Shown in pieces: positions 54,216 through 57,852 of a stretch of DNA of 64,000 nt. The notes beneath the pieces were generated by a model. That model worked only from the letters and a program-made list of their open reading frames with translations. It was not told where the DNA came from and searched no databases. Position 1 is the first letter of the stretch. Every line of letters begins with the position of its first letter. Origin of the DNA: the human T2T-CHM13v2.0 reference genome, Homo sapiens. The stretch lies in the NCBI RefSeq assembly GCF_009914755.1, contig NC_060939.1; one strand, given 5' to 3'. Position numbers and translations under genes: made by a program.

Positions 54216-54398
54216 CCAGAGGTCAATAATAAATGGAAATATCTTACTTTTTATGTGACTATTTTAGATGTGTATTTGTATACTTACGTTTACAAAACCT
54301 AGACAATTCCTTACATAGAAACTCATAACCTGTTTTTCAATGTTTTCTGAGAGATGTTGAATATCAGTGACGATGTCTTTACTGTTTGTTCCCTTTAG

Positions 54399-54449
54399 CT
54401 TCTCAGAATAATCACTGTGTTGACACCAACCAGGAGCTGCTGGCCATTG
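54399..54449 (+). pseudogene. SLC26A11: SLC26A11-like pseudo-exon A (51 nt)
   Basis: ccctttAG|cttctcag...gccattg|GTaaga; open frame containing the SLC26/SulP D-x-NQEL motif. Confidence 0.88.
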
Positions 54450-56276
54450 GTAAGACCCTGGCCATGGGCTTCCTGGGGACTGGGCCTGCCCCTCCGTGTC
54501 TCCTGCATTGAAGGAGGACCCTGATGGTCGTGATGAACTGGGAGGGGCAGAGTGGCCCCAGCTGGGCTCTTTTGAAATATTAGCAAGGACTCATTCCCAG
54601 ATCTTCACACTTTTCAGTTTAGTTCCTAGGAAGAGGGAGCTGACATCTGTTGTCTGTTCTGCCTACCACTTATTGAGCATCTGCTGTCTTCCCGACCCTG
54701 AGGTCTGTAGCCTTGGTCTATACCAAGGAACACATGGAAGGTCCCACCTCAGGGAAGGAGCTCCCAGGGCCAGGGGTCAGAGAGCTAAAGGCTGTGACCC
54801 GGGCAATCTCAGGGAGAGTTTACTGATTGTGCTTGTGCCCTACCCTGTGCCCCATCCAGGCAGGGACAGGTGGATTCGTGAAGACTCAAGAGCCCCAAGT
54901 TGCCCGACTGTGGATGGGGGTCCATGCCAGGTTTCACAGTTCAGTTTCCTCTTGCTATGTCTCTGTGAGCTGACTTCTCTAGTGATGTATTTTGAGACCA
55001 CAGCATGAATCTTAAATTCAGTTATCGTGACTGTTTTTGGCATATCATAGGTCCCAGGCCTGCCTGCCTTTCCTTCTCGCCCCTTGTGAGATGGGTATAG
55101 GCTAACCCGGGCAACACTGTGGGGTTCTTCCCAAGGGGTGTCCACCTGGACAATTTCATGAAAGCCACTTGGCTTCTAGACAGCAAGGCGTGTGACCCAG
55201 GTCAGGTCACAAAGGTACGTTGCCAGAGCTCCTCTCTGAGCAGTGGAGAACTGGACATTTCCCAGTTGAGCAGTGGAGCTTGGGCTTCCTAGGCCTCACT
55301 CACCCTCAGGCTGAGAAAATCCACGGCCTCCTCCAGCCCTCACCAGTAAATCTTCCAAATGTGATTTCCCGGAGCATCTCATTCCCATTACTTCAAAAAT
55401 AGCACAGAACTGTTCTGATGGCACAGTGAGTTCCAGGGATACAACCCAGACAGAGCGAAAATCAACGTTACTAAGGCAGCTACAGAATTCCTTGATCTCA
55501 GATAGGCCAGGCAGTCTTCAGCAGCTGCACAGCAAGAGGCTGACATGAGCCCACGAAGGCCAAGCATGGAGGGGTCGTCCCAGTCATTAGCAGTTCACAG
55601 AGTTGAGTCCCAGATCCAAGCTGTTGCAGAGTGAGGGTGATCACGTGCAGCGTGCGGTCACCGCAGGTCTCTGCTGAGCCCTCCCACGTCTGCATTTCCT
55701 TGCCCCAGCCCCTCTCTCACAAGGCTGTGAGCTGGGCTGCATGACCCAGGATGGCCTGGTACTGAGTTGGCCCCATTCCAAGCCGTCTTGAGAGCAGGCC
55801 CTGCACCCGTGGGTCTTAAGACCCCACTGCCAGTCTTAGATAGCAGACGAAACTCTGGTTTTTGTGACGGCCCGGGTGAGACGGATGCTGGCAGGATCTT
55901 GTGGTCAACCTGAGCAGTAATATCAGTTCTTGGGCCCCAACAATGCTATGGGTGTAGGCAGCCAGCGTCACCTGGGAAGACAGCTTACCAGTCATGACCT
56001 CTGGCCTCATCTTGGCTGTCATCTGTGAGAAGGAGTGGTGGGTTTGAAAGGAAGTGGGTGGAAAACTGTGAGTGGCCACTGACCACCCGAGCACGTTGTG
56101 TTTGTCTTACAGGCACTTCCTTCTCAGCCATCACCCGTTCCTGGGAAGTGAGATGCTCCCCTCTGTTATGCGTGAGGAAGATGTGTCCTTTTCGTCTTTG
56201 TCCTGACTAGAAGTCTGCCTGTCCTGACCCCACATCCCGTCCTCAGCTGTGAACTGTCCATGTGAACTGTCTGAGG

Positions 56277-56323
56277 GCTGACCTTCCCTCAGAAGATCAG
56301 CCACAGCAGCATGGACTGATGTC
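56277..56323 (+). repeat. 47 bp direct repeat, copy 1
   Basis: gctgaccttccctcagaagatcagccacagcagcatggactgatgtc. Confidence 0.95.
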
Positions 56324-56398
56324 ATCCTGCTGTCCTCCAGGGTGTCCTCTGGTTTCTTTGCACTCATAGTCAGGACTGCAGTTTAATACTCAAAAGTT

Positions 56399-56690
56399 CA
56401 CCGGGCGCAGTGGTTCACACCTGTAATCCCAGCACTTTGGGAGGCCGAGGCGGGAGGATCACTTGAGGTCAGGAGTTCAAGACCAAACTGACCAACATGG
56501 TGAAACCCTGTCTCTACTAAAAATACAAAAAAAAAATTAGCCGGACATGGTGGCACGAGCCTGTAATTCCAGCTACTCAGGAGGCTGAGGCAGGAGAATT
56601 GCTTGAACCCAGGAGGCACAGGTTGCAGTGAGCCGAGATTGCAAAGAGATCTGGGTGACAGAGCAAGACACCATCTAAAAAAAAAAAAAA
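56399..56690 (+). mobile_element. AluS (Sz-like)
   Basis: Dimer with altered 3' part (gagattgcaaagagatctgggtgacag); TSD aaaagttc. Confidence 0.93.
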
Positions 56691-56694
56691 GTTC

Positions 56695-56852
56695 CACTGG
56701 GCATGGTGGTATACGCCTGTTATCCCATTTACCCAGGAGGCAGAGGCAGGAGGATCACTTGAGCCCAGGAGTTTGAGGCTGCAGTGAGTTGTGATTGCAC
56801 CACTGCACCCCAGCCTGGGCAACAGAGCAAGACCCTGTCTGAAAAAAAAAAA
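56695..56852 (+). mobile_element. FRAM / AluJ right monomer
   Basis: ggaggatcacttgagcccaggagtttgaggctgcagtgag. Confidence 0.85.
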
Positions 56853-57307
56853 TGCTAGAAAGTTCCCAGCACATTGAAGCCTTCCTAGCTTTTGGTACCA
56901 GAGTTGATGCCTAAAAGGACGTGGGGACAGGAAGGACTGTGGCTCTCCCCTGAAGAAGTCCAGCATGAGGTTTAGCCCAGACCCCCAACCCCACTACCCC
57001 GTGGCCTTCCTAAGTCAGGACAACAGGATGGGGGTGATCTGTGGCTTAAGGGAGAGAAGGGGACGTCACCTGGCAGTGCCTGGTCCCCCAGCTGCTGACC
57101 ACCACCCTGCTGGTTATGGGGCCTCCACCTGGATGGGGGAAGGAAACAAAGCCAGCTAGCATCTGAAAGGACTTGTGCTTCCTGACTTTTCTTACAGTCA
57201 GAGTGCCCTGAGTGCAGCTCAGTGACTGCACCCTAAATCTCTTTGCCTCAACCCCCGGGCCTCAGTCCCCTTGTCCCCTTCCCCCTGCTTCCTAAGGCAT
57301 GCTGGGA

Positions 57308-57354
57308 GCTGACCTTCCCTCAGAAGATCGGCCACAGCAGCATGGACTGATGTC
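57308..57354 (+). repeat. 47 bp direct repeat, copy 2
   Basis: One mismatch to 56277-56323. Confidence 0.95.
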
Positions 57355-57403
57355 TCTCCCTTCCCAGTCTCTGGCGACTAACCATCTCTGTGCTGCCTTC
57401 CAG

Positions 57404-57460
57404 GACAGCTGTGAACGCTCAGTTGGGGGTGTTGCACCCCAGGAGGGGGGCTGGTGATGG
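57404..57460 (+). pseudogene. SLC26A11: SLC26A11-like pseudo-exon C (57 nt, +1 frameshift)
   Basis: ccttccAG|gacagctgtgaacgctcag...ctggtgatgg|GTaagc. Confidence 0.88.
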
Positions 57461-57763
57461 GTAAGCCCCCCTGGTCTTCCCCTTGTGCCCACTGCCGAGA
57501 GTGGGAAAGAGGGAGGAGGGAGCCCACAGAGATGTTCCTACTTAGCAGGACGCCAAGTCTGCTTTGGCTCACAGGCCGTGTTCCCCAGGGTTGCACAGAG
57601 GCTGGGATGGCCATGGGAGACCGAGCAGGGACTGGGGGCCTTGGCTCTCATTACCCTACCCCACCACTGTCCCAGATGGGGCTCCTCTGAGCAGGAGACT
57701 ATGCTGCTTGCTAGGGGGGCCCTACACCCCACGAGGTCACCCCATGTGCCCGCGCCCCCACAA

Positions 57764-57852
57764 GAGCGCTGGTGCTGCTATCGCTGGACTGCCTGACGTC
57801 ACTCTTCTACTACATCCCCAACTCCGACCTGGCTGCAGTCATCCTCAACATT
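57764..57852 (+). pseudogene. SLC26A11: SLC26A11-like pseudo-exon D, acceptor mutated, truncated by the inverted Alu
   Basis: cccacaa|ga gcg ctg gtg ctg cta tcg ctg gac tgc ctg acg tca ctc ttc tac tac atc ccc aac tcc gac ctg gct gca gtc atc. Confidence 0.9.

What the first reader, a model, noticed from the sequence alone, without database searches (positions are those of the whole stretch)
54216..57852. Captured multi-exon fragment of SLC26A11 inside an old L1
Seen: a GC-rich block of about 3.6 kb in AT-rich L1 DNA holds three exon-like segments in order (54399-54449, 57404-57460, 57764-57852). The first two keep AG/GT splice sites. None appears in the ORF track. Knowledge: the peptides match consecutive parts of the SLC26A11 transmembrane core (NQEL, TAVN..GV.TP..G, LFYYIP...LAAVI) as I recall that protein. 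Inference: retained introns and no poly-A mean a DNA-level duplicative transposition, not a processed pseudogene. It has no start and lacks both ends of the gene, so it cannot encode a transporter. I cannot tell whether it is already annotated.
Basis: partly seen in the sequence, partly recalled or inferred. Interest (0 to 1): 0.85.

Follow-up and report, generated by a model that had tools for sequence, protein, structure and literature searches.

The report
Dead SLC26A11 gene fragment on chr15
A roughly 4-kb piece of the anion-transporter gene SLC26A11, introns included, was pasted into an old L1 repeat on chromosome 15 tens of millions of years ago and has since decayed and been partly flipped, so it is an ordinary dead gene fragment with an instructive insertion scar.

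Summary
Window 54252-57847 aligns collinearly, exons plus introns, to SLC26A11 on chr17 (81142065-81147030), at 74-83% identity by BLAST block. It matches nowhere else in the genome.

- A second SLC26A11 piece lies at 58327-58549. It is inverted and matches the next parental intron.
- One parental exon (61 nt) between the first two segments is deleted from the copy.
- The stretch 57848-58549 is a later inversion. It split a flanking Alu, whose own target-site duplication proves this.
- Once the inversion is undone, the whole insert (parent 81142065-81147429) is flanked by a 14-bp target-site duplication (13/14). A match this good appeared in 2 of 196,853 random flank pairs.

The copy is dead. 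It has a frameshift in segment 2, a lost acceptor and truncation in segment 3, no start and no ends.

K2P divergence is 0.200 (0.166 without CpG). An Alu fragment shared with the parent places the capture in primates, very roughly 40-80 My ago.

L1-machinery copying of an unspliced, probably minus-strand, RNA fits slightly better, but there is no poly-A tail.

RefSeq does not annotate the fragment. Interest is low to moderate.

The parts
54236..54249 (.). Left copy of the 14-bp target-site duplication of the insert. The two bases 54250-54251 (TT) match neither the host nor the parent.
   Evidence: 13/14 identity to the reverse complement of 58311-58324. A match this good, this close to both junctions, occurred in 2 of 196,853 random flank pairs. 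Host-repeat copies L033, L039 and L041 carry the stretch once.
54252..57847 (+). Main SLC26A11-derived block (parent chr17:81142065-81147030), with exons and introns and two Alu insertions.
   Evidence: K2P is 0.200+-0.009 over 2,961 aligned non-Alu sites, and 0.166 without CpG.
54399..54449 (+). Exon relic 1 (51 nt). The frame is open, AG/GT are kept, and 9/51 bases differ from the parent.
   Evidence: The peptide, read three codons into the intron, hits only 9iar_B at positions 330-352.
56187..56190 (+). Deletion junction. About 788 bp of today's parental sequence (about 81144952-81145739) is missing here, including the 61-nt exon at 81145634-81145694. There is a 3-nt microhomology (CCT).
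   Evidence: The parental exon equals 9iar_B positions 346-366.
56271..56323 (+). 53-bp patch that duplicates 57302-57354 (50/53). About 37 nt of it is an insertion relative to the parent.
56399..56694 (+). Full-length Alu present only in the copy, inserted into the 5' target-site copy of the neighbouring older Alu fragment.
   Evidence: the alignment shows a clean gap in the parent. RefSeq masks 56399-56716 as repeat.
56695..56853 (+). Roughly 160-bp Alu fragment with its own short target-site duplication. It sits at the same site in the parent (about 81145903-81146060), so it was already there when the segment was copied.
57404..57460 (+). Exon relic 2 (57 nt against 56 nt in the parent). 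One extra base shifts the frame. AG/GT are kept.
   Evidence: No PDB hit at E<=10.
57764..57847 (+). Exon relic 3: the first 84 nt of a parental exon that runs on to about 81147090. The acceptor is CAA instead of CAG, and homology is cut at parent 81147030.
   Evidence: Its peptide is the best hit to 9iar_B at 387-412. The parental exon equals 9iar_B 385-431 and PF00916 positions 323-371.
57848..57852 (.). 5-nt filler at the first inversion junction.
57853..58109 (-). Alu body lacking about 25 nt plus the A-tail at its 3' end. It is part of the inverted block.
   Evidence: The Alu shape and the size of the missing end are judged from recall of the Alu sequence.
58110..58326 (-). Host-repeat sequence, now inverted. 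58110-58128 is the Alu's 5' target-site copy, and 58311-58324 is the right copy of the insert's 14-bp duplication.
58327..58549 (-). Second SLC26A11 piece, inverted (parent intron 81147218-81147429; 173/226 identical, K2P 0.197).
   Evidence: The genome search found no other match.
58550..58575 (+). Orphan end of the split Alu (a short A-run) followed by the Alu's 3' target-site copy (58558-58575).
   Evidence: (alignment score 27 against a maximum of 25 in 1,916 random pairs).

Best explanation
This is a dead, intron-retaining copy of an internal segment of SLC26A11. The segment runs from parent chr17:81142065 to 81147429, which is about 5.4 kb today and nearer 4 kb when copied. It covers four small exons of the transmembrane core.

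Shown:
- The segment arrived in one step at a staggered break in the ORF1 region of an old L1 on chr15, leaving a 14-bp target-site duplication.
- The copy then lost one exon in a deletion of about 0.8 kb (measured on today's parental sequence).
- It acquired a frameshift and lost a splice acceptor.
- It gained a full Alu and a 53-bp internal patch.
- An inversion of 57848-58549 had one break in the third exon relic and the other in the 3' end of an Alu that had landed 217 bp to the right. About 187 bp of SLC26A11 sequence was lost in that event.

Inferred: the insertion was made by the L1 endonuclease and reverse transcriptase acting on an unspliced RNA read from the strand opposite to the gene. 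That would explain why no intron was removed. The RNA's 3' end would lie at parent 81142065, next to the left copy of the duplication.

The fragment has no function as a transporter.
For: Identity and extent:
- Collinear exon-plus-intron homology exists only to SLC26A11.
- Protein matches to 9iar_B support this.

One event:
- The inverted piece has the same divergence as the main block (K2P 0.197 against 0.200).
- It continues the parental interval 188 bp further on.

Later inversion:
- The Alu body lacks its 3' end, and the orphan tail lies 700 bp away.
- The Alu's two target-site copies are in opposite orientation.
- In four independent host-repeat copies (L019, L033, L039, L040) the reverse complement of 58110-58326 runs straight on into 58564 onward; in L041 the three flank pieces lie in the same order on one strand, but the part of 58564 onward that matches begins about 400 nt in.

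Target-site duplication:
- 13/14 identity abutting both ends.
- 2 of 196,853 random flank pairs do as well.
- L033, L039 and L041 hold the stretch once.

L1-type site: the minus strand reads TTT|AAGAAAG at the nick position, which is 5 of 6 against the TT|AAAA consensus I recall. The TSD length and the list of L1 scars follow passages of PMC10760644.

Minus-strand RNA:
- None of the sense introns is spliced.
- Two extra A's lie between the insert and the duplication on that strand.
- In the parent the minus strand reads AATACA, then 19 nt, then the end, then a GT-rich run. Reading this as a poly(A) site is from recall.

Age:
- K2P is 0.200 overall and 0.166 without CpG.
- An Alu fragment is shared at the same site.
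- Three parent-only Alus have empty sites in the copy.
Against: - There is no poly-A tail at either end of the insert. An older Alu tail inside the same copy has survived, so simple decay of a tail is not a comfortable excuse.
- The endonuclease motif is weak evidence in DNA this AT-rich. The plus-strand reading (TG|GAAA) is not absurd.
- RefSeq annotates no antisense transcript inside SLC26A11.
- No L1 related to the reference I used lies beside the parental segment.
- The test for a minus-strand intron at the 788-bp gap gave at best a GC-AG arrangement inside a 3-nt microhomology, which is inconclusive.
- The 2-nt fillers at both junctions fit end-joining as well as target-primed insertion.
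- The L1 label of the host rests on an Atlas look-alike score and phmmer E=0.14. Pfam, PDB and tblastn were blank.
Confidence: 0.5

Rival explanations
1. DNA-level capture. A double-stranded fragment of the SLC26A11 locus was ligated by end-joining into a staggered double-strand break. The break may itself have been made by L1 endonuclease. Fill-in of the overhangs made the 14-bp duplication.
For: - Introns are retained and there is no poly-A tail at either end.
- There are 2-nt fillers at both junctions.
- No source element lies beside the parental interval.
- RefSeq has no antisense transcript there.
Against: - From general knowledge, a 14-bp stagger at a TTT|AAGA-type site is the usual scar of target-primed reverse transcription. 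It is unusual for random breaks or for classical duplicative transposition. PMC10760644 passages list TSDs under 20 bp and endonuclease sites as L1 scars.
- Only one copy exists in the genome. It lies in ordinary L1-rich DNA, not in a duplication-prone region.
Confidence: 0.33
2. Retrocopy of an unspliced sense pre-mRNA fragment of SLC26A11, primed internally in the intron at parent 81147429.
For: - The target-site duplication.
- The gene is known to be transcribed on this strand.
Against: - Four consecutive introns are left unspliced.
- There is no A-rich stretch in the parent at 81147430 onward to prime on.
- The endonuclease motif is poorer on this strand (TG|GAAA).
- There are no A's at the right junction.
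Confidence: 0.08
3. Orphan 3' transduction. A retroelement lying just outside the parental interval read through into it, and the new copy was 5'-truncated so that no element sequence remains.
For: - Orphan transductions are a known L1 outcome (PMC10760644 passages).
- The duplication and the unspliced genomic content fit.
- A minus-strand retroelement does sit 65 bp beyond the parental right end, with its tail facing the copied interval.
Against: - That element is 98-99% identical to at least 1,841 candidate copies. It is therefore far younger than a capture with K2P 0.17-0.20.
- No older L1 was detected in the 35-kb locus with the reference used. That test would miss unrelated L1 3' ends.
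- There is no poly-A tail.
Confidence: 0.07
4. Chance resemblance or a true orthologous locus. That is, the block is not a copy of SLC26A11.
For: None found.
Against: - About 3 kb aligns collinearly at E=0 to 1e-61.
- The flanks are chr15 repeat DNA, not chr17 neighbours.
Confidence: 0.01

Closest known systems
Unprocessed (duplicated) pseudogene fragment
   Same: It keeps the parental introns and splice sites, lies away from the parent, and is disabled by a frameshift, a lost acceptor, a deleted exon and truncation at both ends.
   Different: It carries a 14-bp target-site duplication at an L1-endonuclease-like site, which DNA-mediated duplicates normally lack. It is only an internal 4-kb piece.
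L1-mediated retrocopy or orphan 3' transduction (target-primed reverse transcription)
   Same: Short target-site duplication, a T-rich nick site, unique genomic sequence moved without any element sequence, and a single-step insertion.
   Different: There is no poly-A tail and no identifiable source element next to the parental interval. The content is unspliced multi-exon genomic sequence.
Retroposed antisense transcripts such as PMCHL1/PMCHL2 from the antisense strand of the MCH gene (recalled from memory; no paper read here)
   Same: Retroposition of an RNA from the strand opposite a gene would carry that gene's exons and introns unspliced.
   Different: For the present locus the antisense RNA is only inferred. 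There is no tail and no evidence of expression.
Templated sequence insertions at repaired breaks (recalled; only listed papers that cite the term)
   Same: A distant genomic sequence is inserted once, with short fillers at the junctions.
   Different: At about 4 kb it is larger than the inserts I recall for that class, and the event is ancient and fixed.

Membership tests
Unprocessed pseudogene fragment of SLC26A11 | Collinear DNA homology to the parent gene across exons and introns | tested here: met
   Five + strand blocks at 74-83% identity, from 54252-57847 to chr17:81142065-81147030.
Unprocessed pseudogene fragment of SLC26A11 | SLC26A11 is the closest paralogue | tested here: met
   Copy peptides hit 9iar_B alone (E 0.013) or best (E 1.2e-6 against prestin 0.14). 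DNA hits are to chr17 only.
Unprocessed pseudogene fragment of SLC26A11 | Disabling lesions, or incompleteness | tested here: met
   A +1 frameshift, acceptor CAG to CAA, a 61-nt exon deleted, and truncation in mid-exon.
Classical processed pseudogene | Introns removed | tested here: not met
   Intron sequence aligns throughout.
Classical processed pseudogene | 3' poly-A tail | tested here: not met
   No A-run at either end. Only two unassigned A's on the minus-strand reading.
L1 target-primed insertion (including orphan transduction) | Target-site duplication under 20 bp | tested here: met
   14 bp at 13/14 identity. 2 of 196,853 random pairs do as well. Present once in L033, L039 and L041.
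L1 target-primed insertion (including orphan transduction) | Endonuclease target motif at the nick | tested here: inconclusive
   The minus strand reads TTT|AAGA (5/6 against the recalled consensus). The DNA is AT-rich, so this has low discriminating power.
L1 target-primed insertion (including orphan transduction) | Poly-A tail next to the 3' duplication copy | tested here: not met
L1 target-primed insertion (including orphan transduction) | Source element upstream of the transduced interval in the parent | tested here: not met
   After removing Alu-derived hits, there were no tblastx hits of 35 bits or more (0 of 768 rows) and no blastn hits from the window's younger L1 in the 35-kb locus. 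The only neighbouring element is too young. The test is blind to unrelated L1 3' ends.
Segmental duplication (usual working definition recalled: at least 1 kb and at least 90% identity) | At least 90% identity | tested here: not met
   82.7% identity over 2,961 aligned sites.
L1 (host element) | Recognisable ORF1p or ORF2p coding relics | tested here: inconclusive
   Atlas look-alikes score 0.95/0.94/0.93, and 18 of 30 hits carry PF02994. The phmmer best flank piece has E=0.14, ranking 7th of 2,895 pieces. Pfam, PDB and tblastn gave nothing significant.
Functional SLC26/SulP transporter | Complete Sulfate_transp core plus STAS domain in an open frame | tested here: not met
   Only about 63 codons of relics remain. 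There was no chr15 hit for PF00916 even at E<=10.

The most novel reading that the evidence does not exclude
The block is a molecular fossil of an unspliced RNA transcribed antisense to SLC26A11 in an early primate. The L1 machinery copied it into chr15 with almost no tail. This would be a natural example of L1 moving a multi-exon genomic block with its splice sites intact and without any L1 sequence, which is the raw material for exon shuffling.
Probability: 0.4. Interest if true: 0.4.

Novelty: new member of a known kind. Interest (0 to 1): 0.27.

Why it matters
RefSeq annotates nothing here, and three literature searches found no description of the fragment (listings only). Recording it fills a small annotation gap. 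It also flags a possible source of mis-mapping for SLC26A11 exon and intron reads, although about 17% divergence makes that a minor risk.

The locus preserves a readable sequence of events:
1. An Alu inserts in the parent.
2. The segment is captured, leaving a target-site duplication.
3. Alus insert in both copies.
4. A deletion and then an inversion follow.

This shows that "introns retained and no tail" does not by itself prove a DNA-level origin. It has no bearing on transporter biology.

Tried and rejected
- **Protein-level proof that the host is L1.** Pfam on 8 flank pieces found nothing relevant. Pfam on 3 pieces from related copies found nothing relevant. PDB searches on two flank pieces found nothing relevant. 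tblastn with the two open frames of a Pfam-defined L1 locus gave a best E of about 0.9. Only phmmer (E=0.14) and the Atlas search point to ORF1p.
- **Source L1 beside the parental interval.** The first tblastx run was swamped by an Alu inside the query. The filtered re-run kept 0 of 768 rows and no non-Alu blastn hit.
- **Minus-strand splicing as the cause of the 788-bp gap.** At best this gives GC-AG within a sliding 3-nt microhomology, so it is inconclusive. My mismatch column in that script was mis-registered and I do not use it.
- **The young retroelement 65 bp from the parental end as the vehicle.** Rejected on age.
- **Twin priming as the cause of the inversion.** Rejected, because the inverted block includes host sequence and most of an Alu.
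- **Exon numbers.** I could not obtain a full-length SLC26A11 protein or the chr17 exon table. Exon numbers are therefore not given, and positions refer to the 583-residue PDB chain.
- **Other primates.** No other primate genome was available, so presence or absence in other species is untested.
- **Supplements.** Paper supplements were closed. None seemed needed.
- **Unused tools.** The search for homologous proteins, structure prediction and Rfam were not used.
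Full report
**Observation**

The window shows a GC-rich island (0.46-0.62) from about 54250 to 58750. The flanks on either side are 0.27-0.37 GC.

Whole-genome DNA searches with 54216-56395 and 56860-57870 returned only the window itself and a collinear series of matches on chr17:81142065-81147030. The gene table puts that interval inside SLC26A11 (chr17:81120848-81153937, + strand). It shows no gene in this part of chr15.

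I also ran blastn against 35 kb of the parental locus. It gives five + strand blocks:

| Window | chr17 | Identity |
|---|---|---|
| 54252-54581 | 81142065-81142413 | 74% |
| 54565-55013 | 81142712-81143152 | 82% |
| 55006-55393 | 81143451-81143830 | 83% |
| 55381-56189 | 81144138-81144951 | 78% |
| 56688-57847 | 81145901-81147030 | 78% |

The gaps in the parent between the first four blocks are Alus that the copy lacks. The copy stretches 54565-54581, 55006-55013 and 55381-55393 align to both sides of those Alus. These are the expected empty sites, so the three Alus entered the parent after the copy was made.

**Exons**

The parental exons were located in three ways:
- The Pfam model PF00916 hit chr17:81146946-81147089 at model positions 323-371.
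- A splice-site and phase scan was run in a script.
- Matches were found to the solved SLC26A11 structure 9iar/9ias, "Sodium-independent sulfate anion transporter". Its chain positions 385-431 are identical to the parental exon 3 translation, and positions 346-366 are identical to a 61-nt exon at 81145634-81145694.

Four parental exons therefore lie in the copied interval. Their state in the copy is as follows.
- **Relic 1 (54399-54449).** It keeps both splice sites and an open frame. 9 of 51 bases differ.
- **The 61-nt exon.** It is absent. Copy position 56189 joins parent 81144951 to about 81145737-81145740 across a 3-nt microhomology.
- **Relic 2 (57404-57460).** It keeps both splice sites but has one extra base, which shifts the frame.
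- **Relic 3 (57764-57847).** Its acceptor has changed from CAG to CAA. It stops 84 nt into an exon that continues in the parent.

The copy's peptides find SLC26A11 as the only PDB hit (relic 1, E 0.013) or the best hit (relic 3, E 1.2e-6; prestin 0.14). The frameshifted relic 2 finds nothing. PF00916 found no chr15 match even at E<=10.

Exonic divergence is 28/191 (14.7%), against 17.3% overall. This is what constraint on the parent alone would give. The copy shows no sign of constraint.

**A second, inverted piece and a later inversion**

Window 58327-58549 matches parent 81147429-81147218 on the minus strand, with 173/226 bases identical. The genome search found no other match for that stretch.

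Its K2P distance (0.197+-0.035) equals that of the main block (0.200+-0.009). It lies 188 bp beyond the point where the main block stops.

Between the two pieces lie two elements:
- An Alu body (57853-58109, minus orientation). It lacks its 3' end.
- 217 bp of AT-rich host sequence (58110-58326).

Directly after the inverted piece comes a short A-run (58550-58557), which I take to be the orphan end of that Alu.

The 19 nt next to the Alu's 5' end, read on the opposite strand, match the 18 nt after the A-run. The alignment score is 27, against a maximum of 25 in 1,916 random flank pairs. So one Alu's two target-site copies now face each other.

The orientation of the host sequence tells the same story.
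- In four independent copies of the host repeat (L019, L033, L039, L040), the reverse complement of 58110-58326 is followed directly and collinearly by 58564 onward.
- In L041 left-flank homology, the reverse complement of 58110-58326 and homology to 58564 onward follow one another in that order on one strand; the last begins about 400 nt into that stretch. In L029 left-flank homology precedes the reverse complement of 58110-58326.

The simplest history is that the original insert ran from parent 81142065 to 81147429. An Alu then landed 217 bp to its right. Later the stretch now at 57848-58549 was inverted. One break lay in exon relic 3 and the other in the Alu's 3' end. The inversion lost 187 bp of SLC26A11 sequence and about 25 nt of Alu, and left 5 nt of filler.

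Twin priming cannot explain this, because host sequence and an Alu are inside the inverted block.

**The insertion scar**

With the inversion undone, the same 14-mer (13/14 identical) abuts both ends of the insert. It lies at 54236-54249 and at the reverse complement of 58311-58324. Two unassigned bases sit at each junction.

A control drew random pairs of flank stretches. It counted matches of at least 13/14 within 3 nt of both ends, and found 2 in 196,853.

In three host-repeat copies (L033, L039, L041), the end of the left flank and the start of the un-inverted right flank map onto the same 9-12 subject positions. Those elements therefore carry the stretch once.
- L040 agrees by extrapolation.
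- L034 extrapolates to a gap of about 11 nt instead.
- The other six of the 11 loci gave left-flank alignments elsewhere or too weak to use.

This is a genuine target-site duplication.

On the minus strand the target reads TTT|AAGAAAG at the nick position, close to the L1 endonuclease preference as I recall it. A recent review lists the scars of L1 ORF2p activity as target-site duplications under 20 bp, endonuclease target sequences and poly-A tails. It also describes 5'-truncated "orphan" 3' transductions that hold only read-through genomic sequence (PMC10760644, passages read). The locus meets the first criterion firmly and the second weakly. It fails the third, because there is no A-tail at either end.

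**Host element**

Both flanks are old interspersed repeats, with at least 277 and at least 106 first-look candidates at 65-78% identity. By eye, translated pieces of the left flank resemble L1 ORF1p.

Tool support is thin:
- Pfam, PDB and tblastn were blank or non-significant.
- phmmer --max ranked piece 53816-53941 seventh of 2,895 six-frame pieces in the window (E=0.14). It came just behind six pieces of an obvious younger L1 at about 35.8-38.3 kb.
- The Atlas look-alike search put PF02994-bearing clusters first (0.95, 0.94, 0.93; 18 of 30 hits).

I accept "old L1, ORF1 region, + strand" as likely but not proven.

**Age**

K2P is 0.200+-0.009 over 2,961 aligned non-Alu sites, and 0.166+-0.009 without CpG positions.

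A roughly 160-bp Alu fragment, with its own short duplication, sits at the same site in copy and parent. The capture therefore post-dates an Alu insertion. From general knowledge, that places it in the primate lineage.

After the capture the parent gained at least three Alus. The copy gained one full Alu, and a second Alu landed in the host flank.

I recall per-lineage rates between about 1.2e-9 and 2.2e-9 per site per year. With these, the distances translate to roughly 40-80 My. This conversion is mine and rough.

**Mechanism**

Shown:
- One-step insertion of a contiguous exon-plus-intron segment with a 14-bp duplication.
- Later decay and rearrangement.

Inferred: the vehicle.

I favour L1-machinery copying of an unspliced RNA from the minus strand, for three reasons.
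- An RNA from that strand would not be spliced at the gene's introns.
- The nick motif is better on that strand.
- Two extra A's lie at that junction, and the parental minus strand shows a poly(A)-site-like arrangement just at the end-point (interpretation from recall).

Against this reading:
- The tail is missing.
- RefSeq has no antisense gene there.
- The minus-strand splice test was inconclusive.

I give it about one chance in three.

An orphan transduction is attractive in form, but I found no old source element. The retroelement that sits 65 bp beyond the parental end, with its tail facing the interval, is 98-99% identical to at least 1,841 candidates. It is therefore far too young. I call it SVA from recall only. 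Its position is an unexplained coincidence.

**Prior knowledge**

- RefSeq lists nothing here.
- A search for "SLC26A11" plus "pseudogene" returned 22 papers. In the one listed abstract that mentions a pseudogene, it is SLC26A10 (listing and abstract starts only).
- "SLC26A11P" returned no paper.
- A review of retrocopies notes that intron-containing retrocopies may be overlooked by standard pipelines (PMC5470649, passages read).
- I could not check GENCODE.

**Verdict**

This is a real but ordinary, non-functional gene fragment. Novelty is limited to an unannotated member of a known kind.

Noticed in passing
window about 35800-38340 (minus strand): A much better preserved L1. Six-frame pieces match the ORF1 and ORF2 open frames of a Pfam-defined L1 locus at E from 3.8e-27 to 1.7e-35.
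   Followed up: no
L011:8494-8885 (chr17:81147494-81147885): A very young minus-strand retroelement fragment (at least 1,841 candidates, 98-99% identical; SVA by recall). Its T-run faces the copied interval and lies only 65 bp beyond the parental end-point 81147429. It is too young to be the vehicle, and the coincidence is unexplained.
   Followed up: partly
window 56271-56323 and 57302-57354: A 53-bp direct repeat inside the copy (50/53 identical). The parent has the sequence once (81146490-81146542), and about 37 nt at 56281-56317 is an insertion relative to the parent. This is a later small templated patch or conversion.
   Followed up: partly
window 46421-47274: RefSeq functional-element row 'OCT4-NANOG hESC enhancer', about 7 kb left of the insert.
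   Followed up: no
window 60000-60750 and 62000-63000: Two further GC-richer islands (0.43-0.47) in the AT-rich flank. The second overlaps masked repeats at 62652-63312.
   Followed up: no
window 58959-59053; chr17:81133055-81133141: A short stretch of the host repeat recurs in many copies of that family. It also matches, on the minus strand, a repeat relic inside an SLC26A11 intron at 78% over 87 nt. From recall it resembles the start of L1 ORF2. The tblastn support is not significant (E=0.91).
   Followed up: partly
L011:3040-3100 (chr17:81142040-81142100), minus strand: At the parental left end-point the minus strand reads AATACA, then 19 nt, then the end-point, then a GT-rich run. This looks like a poly(A) site. 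The hexamer is also present in the copy.
   Followed up: partly
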